A stretch of 64,000 nt of DNA from an uncultured Candidatus Saccharibacteria bacterium (GTDB lineage: Bacteria; Patescibacteriota; Minisyncoccia; Phycocordibacterales; UBA2100): positions 21,652 to 85,651 of the forward strand of contig CAZOZG010000001.1 of assembly GCA_964584225.1 (NCBI GenBank), given 5' to 3'. The notes beneath the pieces were generated by a model. The model saw only the letters and a list, made by a program, of their open reading frames with translations, did no database searches and was not told the origin of the DNA. Within the stretch, counting starts at the first letter, position 1. The number at the start of each line of letters is the position of its first letter. Below, in pieces: positions 7,194-63,872 of this stretch. The position numbers and the translations under genes were made by a program.

Positions 7194-7574
7194 TTACGAA
7201 GCCTTGTTCAATTGCACAGCTGCATTGTGCACGAGGCAGATGTTGGGAATGAGACCCGAAAGCAGCATCTCGCGCGGAGACTTATTGCCGAGCTCCGCAA
7301 GCGGTGCTCTGAGCCATTCTGTCAGCGGCTTGCGCTTGTTGAAACGCCGATCAAGCTGTTCCCGGATGTCGATAATGGTGCCGACGAGTTGGATCTCGCT
7401 CATCACGGGGCAATGAAGCAGTTCCGTTTTCACCGCTCCGAGTTCGGACTTTCGCCTGATCCGTTCGAAAAAGACGCGTGCGATCTGGGTCGGCGCGAAG
7501 CCGAGGTGCTTGAGGGATTCGAATGCAGTATCGATACGATTTGCAAACGACACTTTGGGGGTACGTGCTGGCAT
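7194..7574 (-). CDS. Xre-like/DUF2384-like (antitoxin ParS/MbcA-type C-terminal domain) protein, module copy 1
   Basis: C-terminal W...LGNKSPREMLLSG pattern resembles the DUF2384 domain. An aaggagag SD precedes the start. Paralog of 12971-13408. Confidence 0.5.
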   Translation of the reverse strand: MPARTPKVSFANRIDTAFESLKHLGFAPTQIARVFFERIRRKSELGAVKTELLHCPVMSEIQLVGTIIDIREQLDRRFNKRKPLTEWLRAPLAELGNKSPREMLLSGLIPNICLVHNAAVQLNKAS

Positions 7575-7590
7575 GGTGATCTCTCCTTTT

Positions 7591-7615
7591 TGCCGGTCTG
7601 CACCCTAGCACAAAA
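7591..7615 (-). promoter_or_regulatory. conserved upstream motif copy a (tgccggtctgcaccctagcacaaaa)
   Basis: One of four near-identical ~22-nt motifs placed 25-40 nt upstream of each module gene. It contains an extended -10-like TGcTAGGGT on the minus strand. Confidence 0.45.
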
Positions 7616-7707
7616 TCTTTTTTTAAGAAATGAGCCAGCACGCGTACAAAGGAACGGCCGCGCGGTGAAAACCGCGCGGCTCTGATATGTCGATCGCCAA
7701 GTCGTTC

Positions 7708-13449: not shown

Positions 13450-13561
13450 AAAATCTTCGAAAATGGCGCGGTACAGCGCCAACACCAACGAGAAGAGGGA
13501 AATTCATAGCAACGTCTGCTATAGTGGCGCTCGGCAATAGTATTGAAAACGGAGGTTTCTC

Positions 13562-26052: not shown

Positions 26053-26056
26053 TTTG

Positions 26057-26085
26057 CATTTTGTAGTTGCTTCGCGTATAGTGCC
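26057..26085 (+). promoter_or_regulatory. sigma70-like promoter TTGCAT-17-TATAGT upstream of rplC
   Basis: Good -35/-10 match with 17-nt spacer. Confidence 0.45.
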
Positions 26086-26130
26086 TCGCACGCCATGTCC
26101 CCATAGGGACCAATAGCGAGGCAGAGAGCT

Positions 26131-26157
26131 GCCCGCTATCGCGGGCGTTTCGTTTTT
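26131..26157 (+). promoter_or_regulatory. leader hairpin plus U-tract (gcccgc-tatc-gcgggc gtttcgttttt) in the rplC 5' UTR, putative attenuator
   Basis: Terminator-like structure between promoter and ATG; analogous hairpin before rpsS. Confidence 0.35.
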
Positions 26158-26163
26158 AAAGAT

Positions 26164-26760
26164 ATGAAATTCATGCTCGGCACCAAAGGCAAAATGACCC
26201 AGGTCTTCGACGACGCTGGTGCCGTCTGGGCTGCGACGATCGTAAACGCCGGTCCGTTGACCGTCACGCAGGTGAAGACGACGGAGAAAGATGGGTATGC
26301 ATCAGCGCAAGTGGGTTTTGGCATGAAGAAAGAAAAGCGCGTCAACCAAGCGCAAAAGGCAAAGCCGTTTCAATACATGCGCGAATTTACAGATAAAACA
26401 CTGCCGGAAATGGGCGCGAAAATCGACGCGTCGATTTTCGCGCCAGGCGATGTTGTCGCCGTTTCCGCGATCTCAAAAGGCAAAGGCTTCCAGGGCGTCG
26501 TGAAGCGCCACGGTTTTGCAGGCGGTCCTCGCTCGCACGGCCAGAAGAATAAAGAGCGCGCGCCCGGATCAATCGGCGGTGGTGCACGAGCTGGCGCACA
26601 CGTCGCAAAAGGCATGCGCATGGCCGGCCGTATGGGCAGTGATCGCATCACCATCAAAAACCTCAAAGTGCTGCAAGTCGACGCAGCGTCAAACACGATT
26701 GTGATTTCAGGCGCGATTCCCGGTCGTCCGGGCACGCTCGTTGAAATCGTAGGAAAATAA
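26164..26760 (+). CDS. rplC: 50S ribosomal protein L3
   Basis: 198 aa; QVFDDAG...KGKGFQGVVKRHGF motif typical of L3. Confidence 0.95.
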   Translation: MKFMLGTKGKMTQVFDDAGAVWAATIVNAGPLTVTQVKTTEKDGYASAQVGFGMKKEKRVNQAQKAKPFQYMREFTDKTLPEMGAKIDASIFAPGDVVAVSAISKGKGFQGVVKRHGFAGGPRSHGQKNKERAPGSIGGGARAGAHVAKGMRMAGRMGSDRITIKNLKVLQVDAASNTIVISGAIPGRPGTLVEIVGK

Positions 26761-26938
26761 TGAGCGAAGCGAATATATTTTCCACGACCCAGCACCAATT
26801 TTGAAACTCGAGAAAAATATGCAAAACTATCCGACTCAGTTGAATACAGCGAAAGGAGGCACGAACTTCTGGCACTCAAAATTGGTGCTGGGTGCAAGAG
26901 CTTCTAAGCTCGCTGTGCTCGCTAAGAATCTCTAGCAT
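26761..26938 (+). ncRNA. conserved structured intergenic element, copy A (5' GAGCGAAGCGAA; 15-bp inverted repeat cccagcaccaatttt/aaaattggtgctggg; 3' block aagagcttctaagctcgctgtgctcgctaagaatctctagcat)
   Basis: Paralogous to 36489-36646 with compensatory change of the long inverted repeat; ends exactly at the rplD ATG. Confidence 0.4.
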
Positions 26939-27604
26939 ATGGACGCACCTATCTACAACGCACAAGGAAAGAAAGGAGGCTCGGTAAAGCTCCCCGACAA
27001 CGTCTTTGGCATTGCGTGGAATGATTCTTTGATGCACCAAGTTGTCACCTCGATGCAAAGCAACGCACGCGGCCCTGTCGCGCACGCCAAAGGTCGCGGC
27101 GACGTCCGCGGTGGTGGCAAAAAGCCATGGCAGCAGAAGGGCACTGGTCGCGCTCGTCACGGCTCGATCCGCTCGCCCATTTGGAAAGGCGGTGGTGTCA
27201 CACACGGTCCGATCAAAGACAAGAATTATACCCGGGAAATTCCAAAAAAAATGCGCGCAAAGGCACTCTTCATGGCACTCTCGCGTAAACTCGCCGACAA
27301 CGAAATCGTCTTCGTCGACTCGTTCGGTATTACTGCGCCGAAGACGGCAGTTGCAAAGAAAGCACTCGTCGCACTCTCGAAGAGTGGTTTTGAAAAGCTT
27401 TCGAAGAAAAAGAATGCTGCGCTCATTGCGCTTCCCGATCCTTCAGAGGCGGCGATGAAGAGTTTCCGCAACATCGGCAATGTCGACGTCATGAGCGTCA
27501 GAAACCTCAACCCAGTGGCTGTCATGGGCAGCTCCTACCTCGTCGTCGAAAATCCTGAAGCTGCCGTCGCGATTCTCGCCACACGTGCAACAAATAAAAA
27601 ATAA
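26939..27604 (+). CDS. rplD: 50S ribosomal protein L4
   Basis: 221 aa; KKPWQQKGTGRAR motif. Confidence 0.95.
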   Translation: MDAPIYNAQGKKGGSVKLPDNVFGIAWNDSLMHQVVTSMQSNARGPVAHAKGRGDVRGGGKKPWQQKGTGRARHGSIRSPIWKGGGVTHGPIKDKNYTREIPKKMRAKALFMALSRKLADNEIVFVDSFGITAPKTAVAKKALVALSKSGFEKLSKKKNAALIALPDPSEAAMKSFRNIGNVDVMSVRNLNPVAVMGSSYLVVENPEAAVAILATRATNKK

Positions 27605-28854: not shown

Positions 28855-30060
28855 ATGGCGAATTCGTTCGAGGATTTTCAGCTGAAAAGGAAGGAGCGCA
28901 ACGAAGATTTCGACGCCGAACTCGACTCGCTGCAGCAGCGCCTCGGGTACCGCTTTAAAAACAAAGAGCTTTTGATACAGGCGCTCACCGCGAGAGGTTT
29001 CGCCGAGCAGATTGGTGAGCGACACAACACGAGACTCGAAGCGCGCGGCGACGATATTTTGGAGCGGCGAGTCAATGCATGGCTCACACAACACCCGTTT
29101 GGTTCCTATCGAGGGTATATCTATTTAAACGGTTTTCTCAACAGCAACCTGTATCTTTCATCGGCCGGCGTTCGTTTGGGCATTGATCGCGGCGTCCGCG
29201 TGAATGAGGCGCGTGCACAGAGTCAAAGTGTCGAGACGAAAATACGGATGACCGCCGACGCCATGGAAGCGATCATCGCGGCGATCGAAGACGATGGTGG
29301 CAGACCTGCCTCGATCGACTTTATGGAGGCGCACTTGTTGCCCGAATCGGTGTCGGATTCGCCGCTTGGGCGTTTTGTTGGGCTATGCTCCGGTGATCCG
29401 CACGTGATCGAGCAGACATTCAACTCGCTCTTGCGTGGACGAGCAAAACTAGAAATGACTAAACAGGGGAGGGATTTTCATGCAGTCATCAAGGGCGTCG
29501 ACCTGCCCGACGTTCCTTCCAGCCACTCCGACGCTGCACACGCCGCTCATCGAGCAGTCATGACATTTCTCCGGCAAAATCCGTGGGTGCTGTGGGGTTT
29601 CGACGGGCCGGTGAGTCAGCGTGCACCTTCAATGGCATGGGGCGCATACCCGGAGTACGTCGAGCAATCTCTGCCGAAAGAAGTGCGAACGCCCGAATAC
29701 ATCGAAGATCCATACCTTTCGGTCCCTCATCGCGAGGAAGAAGGATGGCCAGATATCGAAATTCCTGCGCTCTTGCCTGAATCAACTCGAGATCGCGGCC
29801 CCTACATCGACAAACTTCGCTGTGTGCTCGAAGGTAAAACTGTCGTCGTGCGTTCGAAAAAAATCGGCAAGGAACAGTTTCCTCGCTACGCATTCTATGT
29901 CGACAAAAATTTTCTCACGACTGTCGAAGGACGTCGCACCTTGAACGACGCCGCGAGTCAGGCCTTACGTGAGCTCGCTGAGATCGAGGCAGAGGGAATA
30001 GAGGATAAAGAAGCAGACGAATTGCCGGTAGAAAATTCACCGGAACCAGAAAGTCAATAA
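28855..30060 (+). CDS. atypical RNase III-like protein (N-terminal ribonuclease III catalytic domain plus ~230-aa C-terminal extension with possible dsRBD-like end)
   Basis: NTRLEARGDD matches the ERLEFLGD signature with E and D retained. MTADAMEAIIAAIEDDGG matches ADALEAL(I)GAIYLDGG. It is 401 aa versus about 230 aa for canonical bacterial RNase III. Confidence 0.55.
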   Translation: MANSFEDFQLKRKERNEDFDAELDSLQQRLGYRFKNKELLIQALTARGFAEQIGERHNTRLEARGDDILERRVNAWLTQHPFGSYRGYIYLNGFLNSNLYLSSAGVRLGIDRGVRVNEARAQSQSVETKIRMTADAMEAIIAAIEDDGGRPASIDFMEAHLLPESVSDSPLGRFVGLCSGDPHVIEQTFNSLLRGRAKLEMTKQGRDFHAVIKGVDLPDVPSSHSDAAHAAHRAVMTFLRQNPWVLWGFDGPVSQRAPSMAWGAYPEYVEQSLPKEVRTPEYIEDPYLSVPHREEEGWPDIEIPALLPESTRDRGPYIDKLRCVLEGKTVVVRSKKIGKEQFPRYAFYVDKNFLTTVEGRRTLNDAASQALRELAEIEAEGIEDKEADELPVENSPEPESQ

Positions 30061-30108: not shown

Positions 30109-30360
30109 TTAACGAAAAAGCGACAAGGCTCCCGGGGGCAGCAGGTCGTCGCCAACGCGGATCGGTTTGTCTTCCTGATGTGCCTTCACCAACAGGTGAT
30201 GAATTCGAATCGCATTCCTGTACACCTCAGATTCTGTCGCGGCGTCGGTCCACTGATCGAGATCCTGAGCCATGAGGTCAGTTGCGGGCGAAACGGATAT
30301 CGTTTTCTTGACCTTTTTAGAATTTCTCCCGACCCCAACGGCTTGTCGTTGCTTTGCCAT
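30109..30360 (-). CDS. ribbon-helix-helix (CopG/Arc/MetJ-like) DNA-binding protein
   Basis: 83 aa; KKTISVSPATDLMAQDLDQWTDAATESEVYRNAIRIHHLL fits the beta-strand plus two-helix RHH pattern; aaggag SD 7 nt upstream. Confidence 0.5.
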   Translation of the reverse strand: MAKQRQAVGVGRNSKKVKKTISVSPATDLMAQDLDQWTDAATESEVYRNAIRIHHLLVKAHQEDKPIRVGDDLLPPGALSLFR

Positions 30361-30407
30361 GGTTCAACTCCTTTGCCGAACAGCAGGCTAACATGGGCCT
30401 TAGAAAA

Positions 30408-30436
30408 TTGACAGAGAGAGCCATTTCCTATACATT
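30408..30436 (+). promoter_or_regulatory. sigma70-like promoter TTGACA-17-TACATT upstream of rpsS
   Basis: Restart promoter after the RNase III/RHH insertion. Confidence 0.45.
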
Positions 30437-33437: not shown

Positions 33438-33980
33438 ATGGCGACCATAACTCACACACATACGTTTGCGGCCATGAAAGATTCGATGGGCTACACCAAT
33501 GTCATGCAAGCACCGCGCGTCACCAAGATCGTCGTTTCGACAGGCGTCGGTGGCGTGAGGGGAGACAAGAAACGTCTCGAACTCATCGTTGATCGTCTCG
33601 CGCGCATTACGGGTCAAGCGCCGGCGACGCGTGCTGCGAAGAAATCGATCGCAACCTTCAAAGTGCGCCAAGGCGACATCGTCGGCTACCAAGTCACGTT
33701 GCGTGGCGCACGCATGCAAGCATTTTTGGACAAACTCATTCACATTGTGTTCCCACGCACCAAGGACTTCCGAGGCTTGAAGTCTTCTGCGATTGATGAA
33801 ATGGGCAACATGACGATCGGCATCAAAGAACACACCGTCTTTCCCGAGACTTCCGACGAAGATTCGAAAGATATCTTTGGCCTTGCTGTCACCATCACCA
33901 CGACCGCGAAGAACAAAAAAGAGGCAGAAGGGTATCTCCGGCACCTCGGCCTTCCGCTCCAGCCTGCCGACAATAAGTAA
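33438..33980 (+). CDS. rplE: 50S ribosomal protein L5
   Basis: 180 aa; typical L5 core. Confidence 0.95.
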   Translation: MATITHTHTFAAMKDSMGYTNVMQAPRVTKIVVSTGVGGVRGDKKRLELIVDRLARITGQAPATRAAKKSIATFKVRQGDIVGYQVTLRGARMQAFLDKLIHIVFPRTKDFRGLKSSAIDEMGNMTIGIKEHTVFPETSDEDSKDIFGLAVTITTTAKNKKEAEGYLRHLGLPLQPADNK

Positions 33981-34008
33981 AACGGACGCCTACGAGCATC
34001 CGTTTTTC
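33978..34008. terminator. hairpin aaaacgga...tccgttttt after rplE
   Basis: 8-bp stem plus T5. Confidence 0.45.
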
Positions 34009-34208
34009 CAGAACAAGTGATAATACTGCGTCCATTTTCTGAGGAGCTTTGCTTTAGCGCGTCTTTTTGCCTTCCGCTTGCGCTTTCTTAATTTCACCTC
34101 GACGCGGAGCAATCCGGTATAAGCGACGATCAGCTTCTTTGTATAATAGATGTGCGGTGCGCCGCACTCATCCACCCAGCCGACGTATGCGTACAGCTTC
34201 TTTGGCAT
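33990..34208 (-). CDS. hypothetical small basic protein (72 aa)
   Basis: ORF inside the rplE-rpsN insertion; Lys/Arg-rich tail. Confidence 0.3.
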   Translation of the reverse strand: MPKKLYAYVGWVDECGAPHIYYTKKLIVAYTGLLRVEVKLRKRKRKAKRRAKAKLLRKWTQYYHLFWKNGCS

Positions 34209-34328
34209 TGAGATCTCCCGTGGCTGAGCCGATAGTGCACGTAAGTGTTCCCTAGGTCAAATACCTCTCGCTATATAAAAAAGAAACGGGCGCTTTCGGG
34301 CGCCCGTTTTGTTTCGGATCAGCGGCAT

Positions 34329-34751
34329 TCACTGTGCAAGCAATTCAATCGCGTTGTTGAGAGCGATAATTGCTTTGCCCTGGGCGTCATTGAGCTTAGC
34401 CTGGAGCTTTGCCTGTGACGCTTTCGAAGCATTGCGCGCGGCTTGTGCCGCGTTGAGCCGCAATCGTGCTGTTTTCCATGCTGCACGAGCCTCCTCCACG
34501 GCTTTGTGGCAAGGGATTGCTTGCACGGTCGACAGTTCACCGCAACTCTCATTCAGCTGCACGAACGTCGCATCCGTGTACATGAGATACAGTGTTGCCA
34601 GATACACGTTTCCTGCGCCATCCATGAAATGGACGGATCCGTGCATGTACCCTTGGTTGATGACGAGGGTTTGCGCGGAGGAAACAGTTGTCGTAACAAC
34701 CAGCACAATGAATGTGATGATTGCAAAGAGCGGGCGAGTAAGCATGTTCAC
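34329..34751 (-). CDS. hypothetical secreted protein (signal peptide plus Ala/Gln-rich coiled C-terminus)
   Basis: 140 aa; followed on the minus strand by hairpin plus T-tract at about 34275-34310. Confidence 0.45.
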   Translation of the reverse strand: MNMLTRPLFAIITFIVLVVTTTVSSAQTLVINQGYMHGSVHFMDGAGNVYLATLYLMYTDATFVQLNESCGELSTVQAIPCHKAVEEARAAWKTARLRLNAAQAARNASKASQAKLQAKLNDAQGKAIIALNNAIELLAQ

Positions 34752-34999
34752 GTCTCCCTGTTGTTACATCGCGTGCAAGGATTATACCACATATATACTT
34801 ATAGCGCAAGTGCTTTTGTTTGACTTCAGAAGTGCCATCGCGTATAGTGGCAGAGCCTCGTAGGGGGCCTTGTTTTTAGCCAAAAAATGGCTGTTACCCA
34901 AAGTTTCTGAGGGGAACAAGGTCACGGTTGGGAAGCCCATAATCCTTCGCGTAAGCAAAGGATGCAGGCTCTCAAAATCTTCCTATTTGGCGCACTGCA

Positions 35000-35185
35000 A
35001 TGGCAAAAAAGTCTTTGATCGTAAAAGCGAACCGCAAGCCGAAGTTTTCTTCGCGCAAGGTTCGCCGCTGCTACAAGTGCGGCCGCCCGCGCGGTTTTAT
35101 GCGTGATTTCAATCTGTGCCGCGTGTGTTTCCGAGAGGAAGCGCTCGAAGGCAACATTCCCGGCATCAAAAAATCAAGCTGGTAA
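35000..35185 (+). CDS. rpsZ: 30S ribosomal protein S14 type Z (zinc-binding)
   Basis: 61 aa; CYKCGRP...CRVCFRE. Confidence 0.9.
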
Positions 35186-36143: not shown

Positions 36144-36488
36144 ATGACAATGACGAAATCACAACAGCGAGAACGACGTCATCGCCGGGTGCGTGCAAAA
36201 GTCATTGGTACGGAAAAGCGTCCGCGCCTTTCTGTATTTAAATCCAATACGCGTTTGGTCGCACAGATCATCAATGATGATAAGGGCGTGACGATCGCAG
36301 CCGTTTCTTCGCGTGACGAGCAGGGCAAGACGCCGCGTGAGCGCGCCGAGATGGCAGCAAAGACACTTGCGACGCGCGCAAACGAGAAAGGCGTGAAAGC
36401 GGTAGTCTTCGATCGAGGCGGCTTTCAATACCTCGGGACGATCAAGGCTTTCGCCGATGCTGCGCGCGCCGCAGGATTAGAGTTTTAA
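36144..36488 (+). CDS. rplR: 50S ribosomal protein L18
   Basis: 114 aa; RLSVFKSN...FDRGG. Confidence 0.9.
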
Positions 36489-36646
36489 GGGAGCGAAGCG
36501 AACACTTACCCCGCACTTTCTAACATCACTTTTCTTCAAGAAGCAAATATGAAAACACCAACCGACAACAGTACAAAATGCAACGTACAGAAAGTGCGGG
36601 GTGTAAGAGCTTCTAAGCTCGTTGTTACTCGCTAAGAATCTCTAAC
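36489..36646 (+). ncRNA. conserved structured intergenic element, copy B (5' GAGCGAAGCGAA; 14-bp inverted repeat ccccgcactttct/agaaagtgcgggg; 3' block aagagcttctaagctcgttgttactcgctaagaatctctaacATG)
   Basis: Ends exactly at the rpsE ATG; paralog of 26761-26938. Confidence 0.4.
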
Positions 36647-37270
36647 ATGAACGCTGAACCAAACATGCAAGAGGGAGGAATGACAGAGCCGGCCGTCGAG
36701 GTGCCGGTGCGGGAGGTGAGCATGCCGGAGCCGCAGGCTTCGGAGACGAAACCATTTGAACGACGTGGTGGTTTCCGCGAACGCGGCGGTGATCGCCGTG
36801 GTGGCCGCCCGCCTCGAGGCGGTGGCCGCGAGGGCCAGCGCAGCGAATTTGCGCAAAAATTGATCGGCATCCGCCGCGTGGCGCGTGTCATGGCGGGCGG
36901 CCGTCGTTTCAATTTCTCCGTCGGCATTGTCTTGGGCGACAAAAAGGGCCGTGTCGGTGTGGGCTTGGGCAAGGCGGCAGACACGCAGCTCGCGATTGAA
37001 AAGGCAAGCCGCGCAGCCAAGCGCAACATGCTCAACCTCAATCTCACCAAAAACCGCTCGATTCCACACAACGTCGAGGCGAAATACTGCGCGTCAGTCG
37101 TCGAAATCCGTCCGGCCGCGGGCCGCGGATTGGTTGCTGGCTCTTCGGTCCGAACGGTCTTGGAGCTCGGTGGAGTCTCCGATGTCACTGCAAAATTGCT
37201 CTCCCGCAGCCACAATCCGGTCAACAACGCACGCGCAGCAATCGAAGCCTTGCGCCAAATTTCCAAATAA
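36647..37270 (+). CDS. rpsE: 30S ribosomal protein S5 with Arg/Gly-rich N-terminal extension
   Basis: S5 dsRBD-like and C-terminal domains; rplR is followed directly by rpsE and rplO, with no rpmD. Confidence 0.93.
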   Translation: MNAEPNMQEGGMTEPAVEVPVREVSMPEPQASETKPFERRGGFRERGGDRRGGRPPRGGGREGQRSEFAQKLIGIRRVARVMAGGRRFNFSVGIVLGDKKGRVGVGLGKAADTQLAIEKASRAAKRNMLNLNLTKNRSIPHNVEAKYCASVVEIRPAAGRGLVAGSSVRTVLELGGVSDVTAKLLSRSHNPVNNARAAIEALRQISK

Positions 37271-63757: not shown

Positions 63758-63830
63758 GCGCCCGTAGCTCAACGGTTAGAGCACAGAGCTTATACCTCTG
63801 GGGTTCCTGGTTCGAATCCAGGCGGGCGTA
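63758..63830 (+). tRNA. tRNA with anticodon UAU (reads AUA; tRNA-Ile by anticodon)
   Basis: Manual cloverleaf: acceptor GCGCCCG/CGGGCGU (G1-U72 wobble); D arm GCTC-AACGGTTA-GAGC; anticodon arm CAGAG-CTTATAC-CTCTG; variable loop GGGTT; T arm CCTGG-TTCGAAT-CCAGG; discriminator A; CCA not encoded. TATAAT at 63744-63749. Confidence 0.8.
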
Positions 63831-63872
63831 CATGAAACAAAATAGTGCCTACGCACTGTTTTGTTTCATGTA
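63831..63872 (+). terminator. long hairpin catgaaacaaaatagtgc-ctac-gcactgttttgtttcatg after the tRNA
   Basis: About 18-bp nearly perfect stem directly after the tRNA 3' end. Confidence 0.55.

What the first reader, a model, noticed from the sequence alone, without database searches (positions are those of the whole stretch)
26761..26938. Two copies of a ~170-nt structured intergenic element with covarying long inverted repeats, each ending at an r-protein start codon
Copy A (26761-26938, before rplD) and copy B (36489-36646, before rpsE) share three conserved parts. The first is a 5' block, GAGCGAAGCGAA, right after the upstream stop. The second is an internal aaatatg(c)aaaac...ccgac segment. 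The third is a 40-nt 3' block, aagagcttctaagctcg(c/t)tgt(g/t)(c/a)tcgctaagaatctcta(g/a)cat, immediately followed by the ATG. Between them lies a 14-15 bp perfect inverted repeat whose sequence differs between copies (cccagcaccaatttt/aaaattggtgctggg versus ccccgcactttct/agaaagtgcgggg) but stays perfectly complementary. That is classic covariation and supports an RNA structure, not a DNA repeat. These are the only two large gaps inside otherwise tightly coupled r-protein runs, and both downstream genes lack SD sequences. Candidate roles are an internal promoter plus structured leader, an RNase III processing stem (an RNase III-like gene sits in the same operon), or an autoregulatory r-protein binding site.
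Basis: seen in the sequence. Interest (0 to 1): 0.7.

Follow-up and report, generated by a model that had tools for sequence, protein, structure and literature searches.

The report
Mobile hairpin cassette between ribosomal genes
The two look-alike 160-180-base spacers are gene-less copies of a mobile, three-hairpin DNA cassette, found in many ultra-small (CPR/Parcubacteria) bacteria, that wedges itself exactly between the stop codon of one essential gene and the start codon of the next and in its complete form carries a small GIY-YIG nuclease gene.

Summary
Copy A (26761-26938, L3 to L4) and copy B (36489-36646, L18 to S5) share the stated blocks and a perfect, copy-specific inverted repeat. 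No third copy exists in the window.

Exact-pattern scans followed by a profile search found 143 distinct copies in about 150 loci, almost all CPR/Parcubacteria.

Each copy has three modules:
- P0: a hairpin that includes the upstream stop codon, capped by GA-GCGNAGC-GA.
- P2: a near-perfect 9-22 bp inverted repeat. Its interior is at most 20 nt or about 72 nt.
- P3: a conserved imperfect hairpin ending 3 or 5 nt before the ATG, or before a Shine-Dalgarno site in other lineages.

All three stems covary. Mismatches are A·C rather than G·U, so they do not behave like a sense-strand RNA.

Relatives of the window organism have 9-33 nt junctions at both sites, so both copies are insertions.

Four family members carry an 84-92 aa GIY-YIG nuclease ORF inside P2. 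Homologous GIY-YIG genes elsewhere are flanked by a closely related inverted repeat (ACCCTGTTAAAT-type).

Best reading: these are ORF-deleted derivatives of a GIY-YIG mobile cassette that restores downstream expression through its start-proximal P3 end. That mechanism is inferred only. The element is not an r-protein autoregulatory site or a known Rfam family.

The parts
26752..26783 (+). Copy A, module P0. The stem is GGAAAATA (26752-26759) paired with TATTTTCC (26776-26783). The cap GAGCGAAGCGAA lies at 26762-26773. The 5' strand holds the last L3 codons and the stop TAA at 26758-26760.
   Evidence: Sequence. P0 stems covary across 49 distinct copies. The L3 C-terminus is ..EIVGK* here but ..EIRG* in relatives.
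26787..26804 (+). Copy A, P2 5' arm: ACCCAGCACCAATTTTGA.
   Evidence: It forms a perfect 18-bp inverted repeat with 26876-26893. The same arm class flanks a real GIY-YIG ORF in L035.
26805..26875 (+). Copy A, P2 interior, 71 nt. It is unstructured and A/C-rich, and it holds the conserved AAATATGCAAAACTATC. I read it as the remnant of a deleted GIY-YIG ORF.
   Evidence: Interior lengths cluster at 65-80 nt in 53 copies. Interiors fold no better than shuffles, z about 0. They show weak similarity to GIY-YIG ORF DNA.
26819..26935 (+). Copy A, 38-codon open frame (MQNYPTQ...LAKNL, stop TAG 26933-26935). It is not a conserved gene.
   Evidence: A frame of this kind, starting in the interior and stopping just before the ATG, exists in only 19 of 71 long forms.
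26876..26893 (+). Copy A, P2 3' arm: TCAAAATTGGTGCTGGGT.
26897..26933 (+). Copy A, module P3, an imperfect hairpin: AGAG-C-TTCT-A-AGC-TC-GC-TGT-GC-TC-GCT-A-AGAA-T-CTCT. It is followed by AGCAT and then the L4 ATG at 26939.
   Evidence: Covariation test. Covariance-model hit of 69.8 bits. The 4th nt after the stem is a purine in 112 of 118 copies.
36486..36508 (+). Copy B, minimal P0. TAAG (36486-36489, which includes the L18 stop) pairs with CTTA (36505-36508). The cap GAGCGAAGCGAA lies at 36491-36502.
   Evidence: L18 still ends ..AAGLEF* as in relatives, so the insertion starts right after the stop.
36507..36521 (+). Copy B, P2 5' arm: TACCCCGCACTTTCT.
   Evidence: It forms a perfect 15-bp inverted repeat with 36589-36603.
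36522..36588 (+). Copy B, P2 interior, 67 nt. A 28-codon frame runs from 36549 to 36635.
36589..36603 (+). Copy B, P2 3' arm: AGAAAGTGCGGGGTG.
36606..36643 (+). Copy B, module P3 hairpin, followed by AAC and then the S5 ATG at 36647.
   Evidence: Covariance-model hit of 76.1 bits. Covariation test.

Best explanation
Both spacers are non-autonomous, ORF-deleted members of a family of mobile palindromic cassettes. The family colonises cistron junctions of highly expressed operons in CPR/Parcubacteria genomes.

The complete element has this layout:
- P0: a hairpin whose 5' strand supplies a stop codon for the upstream gene. It is capped by a GCGNAGC mini-hairpin.
- P2: a near-perfect inverted repeat that encloses an 84-92 aa GIY-YIG nuclease gene.
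- P3: a conserved imperfect hairpin that abuts the start codon of the next gene.

Shown here: the family, its three covarying hairpins, its fixed orientation and position, empty sites in relatives, and ORF-bearing members.

Inferred:
(i) The GIY-YIG nuclease, acting on the inverted repeat or hairpin DNA, is what spreads the cassette. ORF-less copies such as these two would be mobilised in trans or be dead relics.
(ii) Insertion breaks the tight stop-start coupling used in these operons, so the cassette survives only because its P3 end re-establishes expression of the downstream essential gene. P3 would do this by fixing a new mRNA 5' end at a conserved purine 4 nt after the stem. That purine is the A of the ATG or lies 2 nt before it, which gives a leaderless mRNA in this genome.
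(iii) P3 most likely does this as an outward-facing promoter: -35-like TTCTAA, a 15-17 nt spacer that equals the hairpin loop, -10-like AAGAAT, 7 nt, then +1.
(iv) When the element is read through from upstream, the perfect P2 helix and the P0 hairpin would give an RNase III-type cut and a protected 3' end for the upstream message.

The confidence of 0.5 is a blend. I put about 0.85 on the identity (a mobile palindromic cassette family, with the window copies as ORF-less insertions), about 0.6 on the nuclease being the mobilising enzyme, and about 0.35 on P3 acting as a promoter.
For: Family size and position:
- An exact-pattern scan of one genome per species gave 34 loci, mostly CPR. A metagenome scan gave 110 more stretches.
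- A profile search of these loci found 143 distinct copies.
- 114 of 128 testable copies are followed at once by an ATG-started ORF of at least 45 aa on the same strand.
- The distance from the P3 stem to the ATG is 3 nt in 73 copies and 5 nt in 29. The 4th nt after the stem is a purine in 112 of 118.
- In lineages that use Shine-Dalgarno sites, that purine is a G directly before GGAGGTG.
- In the first set of about 35 copies checked, the upstream ORF usually stops inside the P0 5' strand.

Insertion and mobility:
- Relatives L035 and L036, whose L4 is 78-80% identical, have L3-L4 gaps of 33 and 9 nt and L18-S5 gaps of 16 and 10 nt.
- Copy A is 81% and 79% identical to copies in other genomes in front of other genes, but only 66% identical to copy B. 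Copy B is 78% identical to a copy that precedes S7.

Nuclease link:
- GIY-YIG ORFs (Pfam E = 1e-13 to 3e-17) sit exactly in the P2 loop in L099, L023 and L035, and in part in L111. Each runs through the 3' arm and stops at a P3 TAA.
- Small GIY-YIG genes from 4 other protein clusters (8 loci) are flanked by ACCCTGTTAAAT...ATTTAACAGGGT or a one-mismatch variant of it.
- Some ORF-less interiors keep ORF fragments, for example a 21-nt perfect match in L070.

Expression role:
- This genome is largely leaderless, with TGnTAnnnT placed 6-7 nt before the ATG.
- P3 has promoter-like geometry, with loop lengths of 10-12 nt in nearly all copies.
- In L152 and L153 an ordinary leaderless promoter (TGATACACT, 7 nt, ATG) occupies the place of P3 after the nuclease cassette.
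- Downstream genes are mostly r-proteins, RpoA, NusA, NusB, SecY and SSB.
Against: - No transcript data exist, so a start site or cleavage at the conserved purine is inferred only.
- P3 matches the sigma-70 consensus poorly. One covarying class of about 8 copies (AAGAAAAACT) lacks the key -10 T.
- The two arms of P3 covary, which a plain promoter does not need.
- 75 of 105 copies are operon-internal. In 14 of 29 operon-start contexts a good canonical promoter lies upstream of P0. The element is therefore often co-transcribed and need not carry a promoter.
- L3 in this window is translated from a leadered mRNA without a Shine-Dalgarno site, so a leaderless mRNA may not be required.
- Nuclease-driven mobility is by analogy only. 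These nucleases are catalytic domain only, with no DNA-binding domain.
- No target-site duplication or clear long terminal inverted repeat was found.
- Only 4 of 143 copies carry the ORF.
Confidence: 0.5

Rival explanations
1. It is a sense-strand RNA processing element. The cassette is transcribed as part of the operon. RNase III cuts the perfect P2 helix, as it does the stems of rRNA intervening sequences. P0 protects the upstream message, and another cut just after P3 yields a leaderless or short-leader downstream mRNA. No promoter is involved.
For: - P2 is a near-perfect helix of 9-22 bp, 15-22 bp in most long forms.
- 75 of 105 copies are operon-internal, and half of the operon-start copies lie downstream of a canonical promoter.
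- The P3 class without a -10-like T must be expressed from read-through RNA.
- CPR genomes retain RNase III and RNase J (PMC12641178).
- In CPR rRNA genes, GIY-YIG ORFs lie in insertion sequences that resemble neither group I nor group II introns. That paper also notes that some 23S intervening sequences are cut by RNase III (PMC11270868).
- An RNase III-like gene lies in this operon.
Against: - The stems do not tolerate G·U more than A·C on the sense strand.
- Sense-strand P3 is the weaker version, -8.5 against -10.7 kcal/mol, and its conserved mismatches are pyrimidine-pyrimidine.
- A nuclease has no obvious reason to require a purine at the cut position.
- The RNase III-like gene is absent from relatives, so no association is shown.
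Confidence: 0.22
2. It is a purely selfish palindromic repeat, in the manner of REP/BIME/REPIN elements or MITEs, with no host function. Its position at stop-start junctions would reflect target preference plus survival of only the harmless insertions. P3 would be conserved because the mobilising enzyme recognises it.
For: - Empty sites in relatives.
- Subfamilies shared between genomes at different genes.
- Dense arrays, such as 5 copies in the 9-kb contig L041.
- P0 and P3 look like inverted versions of one capped hairpin. The P3 profile hits P0 only in reverse orientation, 9 hits against 0. P0 is more stable on the top strand and P3 on the bottom strand.
- P3-like hairpins occur in a 135-bp MITE of a Ruminococcaceae genome and between tRNA genes in a Bacteroides genome.
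Against: - Orientation relative to the downstream gene is fixed. The P3 end is far better conserved than the P0 end, and a purine sits at a fixed distance.
- In other lineages P3 abuts the Shine-Dalgarno site rather than the ATG.
- The element is enriched before highly expressed genes.
- An insertion of 110-190 nt between coupled essential genes must provide some way to express the downstream gene.
Confidence: 0.2
3. It is a translational device built on an upstream ORF. A short ORF starts in the P2 interior, runs through P3 and stops at TAA 1 nt before the ATG. Terminating ribosomes would then re-initiate on the main gene.
For: - The copies before the genes in L015, L072, L060, L106 and L053 have TTGAGA, 17 nt, TACAAT, 6 nt, then ATG AGA AC.. 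That gives a 23-codon frame ending TAA-C-ATG.
- Copy A and its relatives keep a 38-codon frame.
- For 11- and 12-nt loops, P3 carries TAA in all three frames (my own frame count on the sequences).
Against: - Only 19 of 71 long forms and 1 of 35 short forms have such a frame.
- Copy B's frame stops 12 nt earlier.
- The peptide is not conserved.
- The frame is better explained as the two ends of the deleted GIY-YIG ORF.
Confidence: 0.05
4. It is an r-protein autoregulatory binding site or another ligand-sensing leader RNA.
For: It lies in r-protein operons and folds well.
Against: - The same conserved block precedes genes of 67 different Pfam families, including SOD, pyrophosphatase, an exonuclease and pilus genes.
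- There is no Rfam match.
- It is absent from orthologous junctions in relatives.
- It consists of three simple hairpins without a junction or pocket.
Confidence: 0.03

Closest known systems
Insertion sequences in CPR rRNA genes that encode GIY-YIG proteins and resemble neither group I nor group II introns (PMC11270868). The same paper notes that some 23S rRNA intervening sequences are excised by RNase III.
   Same: - Same kind of organisms.
- Small GIY-YIG ORFs carried in insertions placed in conserved, highly expressed genes.
- The paper places most of its insertion sequences at the top or base of stem-loops.
- ORF-less short versions are common.
- A long stem could be an RNase III substrate.
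   Different: - Here the host site is a protein-gene junction, stop to start, and not an rRNA helix.
- The element has two extra conserved modules, P0 and P3, tied to the stop and start codons.
- I did not compare the sequences of the rRNA insertions with this family.
Free-standing GIY-YIG homing endonuclease genes of phages, such as the T4 seg genes (from my own knowledge).
   Same: A small nuclease gene inserted between conserved genes, present or absent between relatives, and carrying its own expression signals.
   Different: - Seg proteins are about 200 aa or more and have a DNA-binding domain. These are 84-92 aa and catalytic domain only.
- Here the gene is bounded by an inverted repeat, and most copies have lost it.
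- Homing was not tested.
Correia / NEMIS elements of Neisseria (PMC2649163).
   Same: A roughly 100-155-bp palindromic mobile repeat next to genes. It is co-transcribed, can create outward promoters at its ends, and forms a hairpin bound or cut by RNase III.
   Different: - There is no sequence similarity. Best BLAST is 23 bits, against 20-31 bits for shuffled queries.
- No 26-bp terminal inverted repeat and no TA duplication.
- The CPR element has three hairpins, a strict orientation and a strict stop-to-start position.
- Correia elements have no known associated nuclease ORF.
REP / BIME / REPIN repeats mobilised by RAYT transposases (PMC3116915, PMC2817692).
   Same: - Extragenic imperfect palindromes with a (G/T)TAG head.
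- Paired in inverted orientation around a spacer.
- Often found inside operons.
   Different: - The associated enzyme here is a GIY-YIG nuclease and not a Y1 transposase. Presence of a RAYT was not tested.
- The position relative to start codons is fixed.
- The inverted homology between P0 and P3 is weak outside the 11-nt cap.
Sigma-70 promoters of leaderless genes in this same genome.
   Same: The position of an A/T-rich hexamer with A at position 2 and T at position 6, 6-7 nt before the ATG, with a purine at +1.
   Different: - P3 has AAGAAT without the TG extension.
- It has a weak -35.
- It has a hairpin symmetry that ordinary promoters lack.
- One class lacks the T.

Membership tests
Rfam RNA families (r-protein leaders, riboswitches, ribozymes) | A match to a curated covariance model at or near its gathering score. 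| tested here: not met
   The whole window at gathering threshold gave only tmRNA and a tRNA. Region 26700-27000 at E up to 10 gave only noise. Six non-CPR loci that carry the hairpin gave nothing relevant.
MITE (generic) | A short, non-coding element in many copies, present or absent at orthologous sites. | tested here: met
   143 distinct copies. Empty L3-L4 and L18-S5 junctions in L035 and L036.
MITE (generic) | Terminal inverted repeats and a target-site duplication. | tested here: inconclusive
   By eye, the ends read TTAGA(A/G)A ... TCTCTAA, about 7 bp. No duplication could be seen at the two filled sites when compared with the empty ones.
GIY-YIG nuclease cassette | An ORF with a GIY-YIG catalytic domain inside the element. 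| tested here: met
   L099, L023 and L035 score PF01541 with E = 9e-14, 3e-17 and 7e-16. This holds for the family only. The two window copies have no such ORF.
GIY-YIG nuclease cassette | The same inverted repeat flanks the nuclease gene wherever the gene occurs. | tested here: met
   All 8 loci from 4 further protein clusters have the ACCCTGTTAAAT-type repeat. It is perfect over 12-15 bp in 7 loci and has one mismatch in L154. The window arms are of the class that flanks the ORF in L035.
GIY-YIG nuclease cassette | The nuclease cleaves the empty site or the element ends and so drives mobility. | not testable with these tools
   This needs biochemistry or genetics.
Correia / NEMIS | Sequence homology to the Correia consensus, a 26-bp terminal inverted repeat, and a TA duplication. 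| tested here: not met
   A Correia copy was fetched from N. gonorrhoeae. BLAST against all CPR copies scored no better than shuffled queries.
REP / BIME / REPIN | An imperfect palindrome with a GTAG head, occurring as inverted pairs. | tested here: inconclusive
   By eye, P0 begins with (G/T/C)TAG in most copies. P3 matches P0 only in reverse orientation, and weakly, with best E = 0.004. The two modules favour opposite strands.
REP / BIME / REPIN | An associated RAYT (Y1 transposase) gene in the genome. | not tested
   Whole genomes were not available to scan.
IS200/IS605-type palindrome-associated elements | Sub-terminal hairpins at both ends on the same strand. | tested here: not met
   P0 is more stable on the top strand in 40-43 of 49 copies. 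P3 is more stable on the bottom strand in 73-74 of 76.
Integron attC site | Outer R'' (RYYYAAC) and R' (GTTRRRY) boxes that pair with each other (consensus from my own knowledge). | tested here: not met
   By eye on the sequences, the ends read TAGAAAA... and ...TCTCTAAC. No such boxes are present at the ends.
Sigma-70 promoter (P3) | -35 and -10 hexamers with a 15-19 nt spacer and a purine start 6-8 nt after the -10. | tested here: inconclusive
   The canonical form is TTCTAA, 15-17 nt, AAGAAT, 7 nt, then a purine in 112 of 118 copies. The consensus scan did not call it a promoter. The TTG class lacks the T. Activity cannot be tested here.
RNase III substrate (P2) | A long, regular double-stranded RNA helix that RNase III cleaves. 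| not testable with these tools
   The helix is there, 15-18 bp and perfect in the window, and 91% Watson-Crick across the family. Cleavage is unknown.

The most novel reading that the evidence does not exclude
A small GIY-YIG nuclease gene bounded by the ACCCTGTTAAAT-type inverted repeat may be an undescribed kind of bacterial mobile element.

Its proposed properties:
- It spreads across phyla.
- It targets hairpin tips and cistron junctions of essential operons.
- In CPR it has acquired two adaptor hairpins, P0 and P3.

P3 would be a conserved hairpin-shaped promoter or 5'-end-defining signal. It is more stable on the template strand, and it launches leaderless or SD-first mRNAs. That would make the cassette a portable intercistronic expression unit that has re-wired r-protein operons.
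Probability: 0.25. Interest if true: 0.85.

Novelty: new variant of a known kind. Interest (0 to 1): 0.62.

Why it matters
If the reading is right, r-protein operons of many ultra-small bacteria are broken up by a mobile cassette. These operons are among the most conserved gene arrays known.

The cassette brings its own stop codon, hairpins and start-proximal signal. That would bear on four points:
- It would explain odd 110-190-nt gaps and N-terminally over-extended gene calls in CPR genome annotations.
- It would give a sequence tag (P3) that marks real start codons.
- It would link the small, domain-only GIY-YIG genes scattered through bacterial genomes to a defined inverted-repeat unit, and so to a testable mobility mechanism.
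- The near-invariant 37-nt P3 hairpin is a concrete handle on how genes are expressed in organisms that mostly lack Shine-Dalgarno sites.

Tried and rejected
1. Pairing of the 5' block with the loop of the 3' block, as in the minimum-energy folds. Rejected. Copies with identical 5' blocks have different P3 loops. The cap covaries within itself (G3-C9 changes to A3-T9 seven times and to C3-G9 once). The P3 apex covaries within itself.

2. A conserved small protein or upstream ORF. Rejected as a general feature.

3. A sigma-70 promoter in the P2 interior as a general feature. Rejected. Enrichment is marginal and there is no strand bias. It is still plausible in some subfamilies.

4. A structured P2 interior. 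Rejected, z about 0.

5. Homology to Correia elements, a lead from my memory of shared words (GATTCTCTAAGG, GGTGCTG). I fetched and tested a Correia copy, and similarity was at chance level.

6. Phage or plasmid origin. The viral scan gave one chance hit inside a gene. There were no BLAST hits in the plasmid or phage collections.

7. Known Rfam family. No match.

8. Mimicry of the 23S rRNA L11-binding site, based on the 10-mer GCUUAGAAGC on the bottom strand. This came from memory. By my own rough estimate the match is at chance level, and I did not pursue it.

9. Literature. Ten searches found no description of this element.

10. One Pfam call failed because of a bad frame and was not repeated.
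Full report
**1. The observation**

The window carries a CPR-type r-protein cluster: L3, L4, L23, L2, S19, L22, S3 ... S8, L6, L18, S5, L15, SecY (Pfam).

Copy A fills the 178 nt between the L3 stop and the L4 ATG. Copy B fills the 158 nt between the L18 stop and the S5 ATG.

The two copies align at 79% mean column identity. The 12-nt 5' block and about 40 nt at the 3' end are almost identical.

Each half of the 3' block occurs exactly twice in the window even with three mismatches allowed, and shuffles give none. A covariance model of the block run without filters finds only these two copies.

- Other large gaps exist in the r-protein run.
- Most genes here lack a Shine-Dalgarno site. Operon-internal genes are joined as TAA-N(1-3)-ATG. 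Many first genes have TGnTAnnnT 6-7 nt before the ATG, which implies leaderless mRNAs.

**2. It is a large family**

I scanned one genome per species for GCTTCTAAGC-N8-16-GCTAAGAATC. This gave 34 loci, nearly all CPR MAGs labelled Kaiserbacteria, Paceibacterota or Parcubacteria. Some are labelled Saccharibacteria, but their r-proteins look Kaiserbacteria-like, so I do not trust that label.

A stricter pattern on metagenomes gave 110 more stretches.

A profile of the 3' block then found 195 hits and 143 distinct copies. These include divergent variants next to canonical ones, and dense arrays such as 5 copies in the 9-kb contig L041.

There is no match in Rfam, phages or plasmids. Ten literature searches found no description of the element.

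**3. Anatomy**

Aligning many copies shows three consecutive hairpins.

P0:
- An 8-15 bp stem whose 5' strand is the end of the upstream gene. The stop codon lies in that strand, either TAA just before the cap or TAG 10-17 nt earlier.
- Its apex is GA-GCGNAGC-GA(A/C).
- P0 stems pair with their own partner much better than with partners from other copies, 16.0 against 7.7 ± 0.44.
- The cap shows internal compensatory changes: G3-C9 to A3-T9 seven times and to C3-G9 once.

P2:
- It follows P0 directly. It is a near-perfect inverted repeat of 9-22 bp, 91% Watson-Crick over 89 distinct arm pairs.
- Its interior is either at most 20 nt (29 copies) or 65-80 nt (53 copies).

P3:
- Sequence: AGAG-C-UUCU-A-AGC-UC-(2 bp, 3-4 nt loop, 2 bp)-UC-GCU-A-AGAA-U-CUCU.
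- On 78 distinct sequences, 13 pairs are 96% paired.
- Seven pairs show changes on both sides, against 3.4 ± 0.8 in shuffles. That is 75 cells against 22 ± 9, and 0 of 500 shuffles reach the observed value.
- Slid registers collapse to at most 43% paired.
- Four positions are never or almost never paired: A×A, C×U, U×C and C×U.

The minimum-energy fold pairs the 5' block with the P3 loop. Covariation does not support that pairing.

**4. DNA or RNA?**

If these were sense-strand RNA helices, G·U should be tolerated and A·C should not. The reverse is seen:
- P2: 49 A·C against 29 G·T.
- P3: 21 A·C against 7 G·T.

The conserved 'mismatches' of P3 make more sense on the complementary strand. Tandem U×C/C×U becomes tandem G·A, and the UNC loop becomes a GNA loop. 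The apex then reads GAGCGNAGCGA, which is the same motif as the P0 cap.

Energies agree. P3 is more stable on the bottom strand in 73 of 76 copies with RNA parameters and in 74 of 76 with DNA parameters. P0 is more stable on the top strand in 40-43 of 49.

The P3 profile hits P0 only in reverse orientation, 9 weak hits against 0, while shuffles give about 0.8 per round.

These counts are not phylogenetically independent. Even so, they argue that the palindromes are maintained at the DNA level or on both strands, not as a classical sense-strand RNA fold.

**5. The copies are insertions and the family moves**

Relatives of the window organism, whose L4 is 78-80% identical, have 33- and 9-nt L3-L4 junctions and 16- and 10-nt L18-S5 junctions with no element.

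Copy B begins right after an unchanged L18 stop (..AAGLEF*). Copy A rewrites the L3 C-terminus from ..EIRG* to ..EIVGK*, with the element's GTAGGAAAATAA supplying the new end.

Copy A is closer to copies in other genomes that sit before other genes than it is to copy B: 81% and 79% against 66%. Copy B is 78% identical to a copy that precedes S7.

**6. The nuclease link**

In L035, a relative of the window organism, the copy before S14 has a 20-bp P2 repeat (ACCCAGCA(T/C)CTTGTTTGTTT). This repeat encloses an 84-aa ORF exactly.

The same arrangement occurs before L11 in L099 and before L10 in L023, and in part in L111. There a full P0 precedes the P2 5' arm. The ORF starts 0-16 nt after the arm, reads through the 3' arm and stops at the first or second TAA of P3. 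L035 has no recognisable P0.

All three ORFs are GIY-YIG catalytic domains, E = 1e-13 to 3e-17.

Homologues of 84-96 aa are numerous: 272 at E ≤ 1e-8. I read eight loci from four further protein clusters. Some are clearly not CPR operons and lie next to DruA, a DNA methylase or 23S_rRNA_IVP genes. In all eight the gene is flanked by ACCCTGTTAAAT...ATTTAACAGGGT or a close variant. The 3' arm encodes the C-terminal ..SYLTG.

So P2 is the boundary of a GIY-YIG gene unit. The roughly 72-nt interiors are best read as what is left after the ORF was deleted:
- Interiors are slightly but significantly more similar to GIY-YIG ORF DNA than shuffles are, 18.1 against 16.9 ± 0.26 bits. L070 has a 21-nt perfect match and L058 a 19-nt match.
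This is by eye only.

Published work reports GIY-YIG ORFs in non-intron insertion sequences of CPR rRNA genes (PMC11270868). I found nothing about protein-gene junctions.

**7. What P3 does**

Position and conservation:
- P3 always faces the downstream gene. 114 of 128 testable copies are followed at once by an ORF.
- The stem ends 3 nt (73 copies) or 5 nt (29 copies) before the ATG.
- The 4th nt after the stem is a purine in 112 of 118 copies. It is the A of the ATG, or an A or G two bases before it.
- In SD-using lineages it is a G directly before GGAGGTG.

Points for a promoter giving a leaderless or SD-first mRNA:
- There is a fixed purine with C at -1, an AAGAAT 7 nt upstream and a TTCTAA 15-17 nt further up. 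The spacer is the hairpin loop, and its length is held at 10-12 nt.
- In L152 and L153 an ordinary leaderless promoter (TGATACACT, 7 nt, ATG) sits where P3 would be, after the nuclease unit.
- The downstream genes are the highly expressed core: r-proteins, RpoA, NusA, NusB, SecY, SSB and others, 67 families in all.

Points against:
- The match to consensus is poor compared with this genome's own promoters.
- One covarying class lacks the -10 T.
- The arms covary.
- 75 of 105 copies are operon-internal, and 14 of 29 operon-start copies have a good promoter upstream of P0. The element is therefore often part of a longer transcript.

The alternative is RNA processing: RNase III cutting at P2 and a second cut after P3. 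I cannot separate the two readings without transcript data.

**8. Verdict**

Shown:
- A new, widespread family of three-hairpin palindromic cassettes at stop-start junctions of CPR operons.
- The two window copies are lineage-specific, ORF-less insertions.
- Complete members carry a GIY-YIG nuclease bounded by the P2 repeat.

Inferred:
- Mobility is driven by the nuclease.
- P3 has an expression-restoring role. I favour a promoter, with processing as the main rival.

It is not an r-protein autoregulatory site, a known RNA family or a conserved small gene.

I rate it a new variant of known kinds (MITE-like or intervening-sequence-like palindromic insertions, and free-standing GIY-YIG genes). 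It is of good but not top interest until the mechanism is tested.

Noticed in passing
window 28855-30060 (and the small ORF at 30178-30411): A 401-aa protein with an N-terminal RNase III-like domain (PF14622, E = 7e-11) is inserted between rplB and rpsS. It has its own leaderless-type promoter (TGATACACT, 7 nt, ATG). In relatives L035 and L036, L2 and S19 are adjacent, so this is another lineage-specific insertion in the operon.
   Followed up: partly
window, whole (e.g. 21014, 24378, 39019, 41628, 44949, 47791, 49400, 56892, 62606): Many genes have an extended -10 element (TGnTAnnnT) ending 6-7 nt before the ATG and no Shine-Dalgarno site. Operon-internal genes are joined as TAA-N(1-3)-ATG. 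The organism seems to rely on leaderless mRNAs and on termination-reinitiation. Only a few genes have GGAGG.
   Followed up: partly
window 34820-34999; also L001 about 7500-7640 and L035 about 13500-13560: Upstream of rpsN (S14) lies a promoter (TTGACT, 17 nt, TATAGT). It is followed by a leader of about 150 nt that starts with a terminator-like hairpin, GCCTCGTAGGGGGCCTTGTTTTT. The same hairpin sequence recurs upstream of S14 in other genomes. It may be an attenuator or an S14-specific leader. There is no Rfam match.
   Followed up: no
window 26053-26163: rplC (L3) has a promoter-like site (TTTGCA, 18 nt, TATAGT). A GC-rich hairpin plus T-run at 26130-26156 follows, only a few bases before the ATG. 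So L3 appears to be translated from a leadered mRNA without a Shine-Dalgarno site, with an attenuator-like structure.
   Followed up: no
window 33980-35000 and L035 12353-13971: The L5-S14 junction is a hot spot for insertions. The window has a minus-strand 139-aa ORF there (34329-34745) with terminators on both sides. L035 has two unknown ORFs plus the GIY-YIG cassette.
   Followed up: no
window 63758-63831: A tRNA-Ile gene with the anticodon TAT, which is unusual in bacteria.
   Followed up: no
L004 1530-1665, L022, L026, L033 (Ruminococcaceae RUG13855); L052, L115, L064: A repeat of about 135 bp has terminal inverted repeats TGTCATCCTCCT... / ...GAATGACA. It contains a P3-like hairpin (AGAGCTTCTAAGC-GGCAAGCC-GCTAAGAATCTCT), a TTCGC-GAA-GCGAA hairpin and a P2-like hairpin. 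The modules are the same as in the CPR element but in permuted order, and the host belongs to an unrelated phylum.
   Followed up: partly
L012 3099-3293 (Bacteroides MAG): Two tandem 134-bp units each contain a P3-like hairpin. They lie between two tRNA genes, with the hairpin's more stable (bottom-strand) version on the tRNA strand.
   Followed up: no
L078 246-497, L081 1833-1949, L098 497-615: Tandem partial duplications. Units made of a GC-rich hairpin plus the 5' half of P3 are repeated two or three times before a complete P3, which is followed by GGAGGTG and the ATG.
   Followed up: no
L154-L162 (gene at 1501-1764 in each): Small GIY-YIG genes with the ACCCTGTTAAAT inverted repeat sit in variable regions next to DruA, an N6/N4 DNA methylase and 23S_rRNA_IVP genes. 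Sometimes two occur in tandem (L157, L159).
   Followed up: partly
P0003 / L038 406-1179 and other L4 homologues of 240-260 aa: Several database L4 proteins are 20-35 residues longer at the N-terminus than the rest. The extension in L038 (MNTTHKQFQKNSVDLAALRKGG) lies upstream of the conserved MEATVYNAQ start. These look like over-extended gene calls across the L3-L4 spacer.
   Followed up: no
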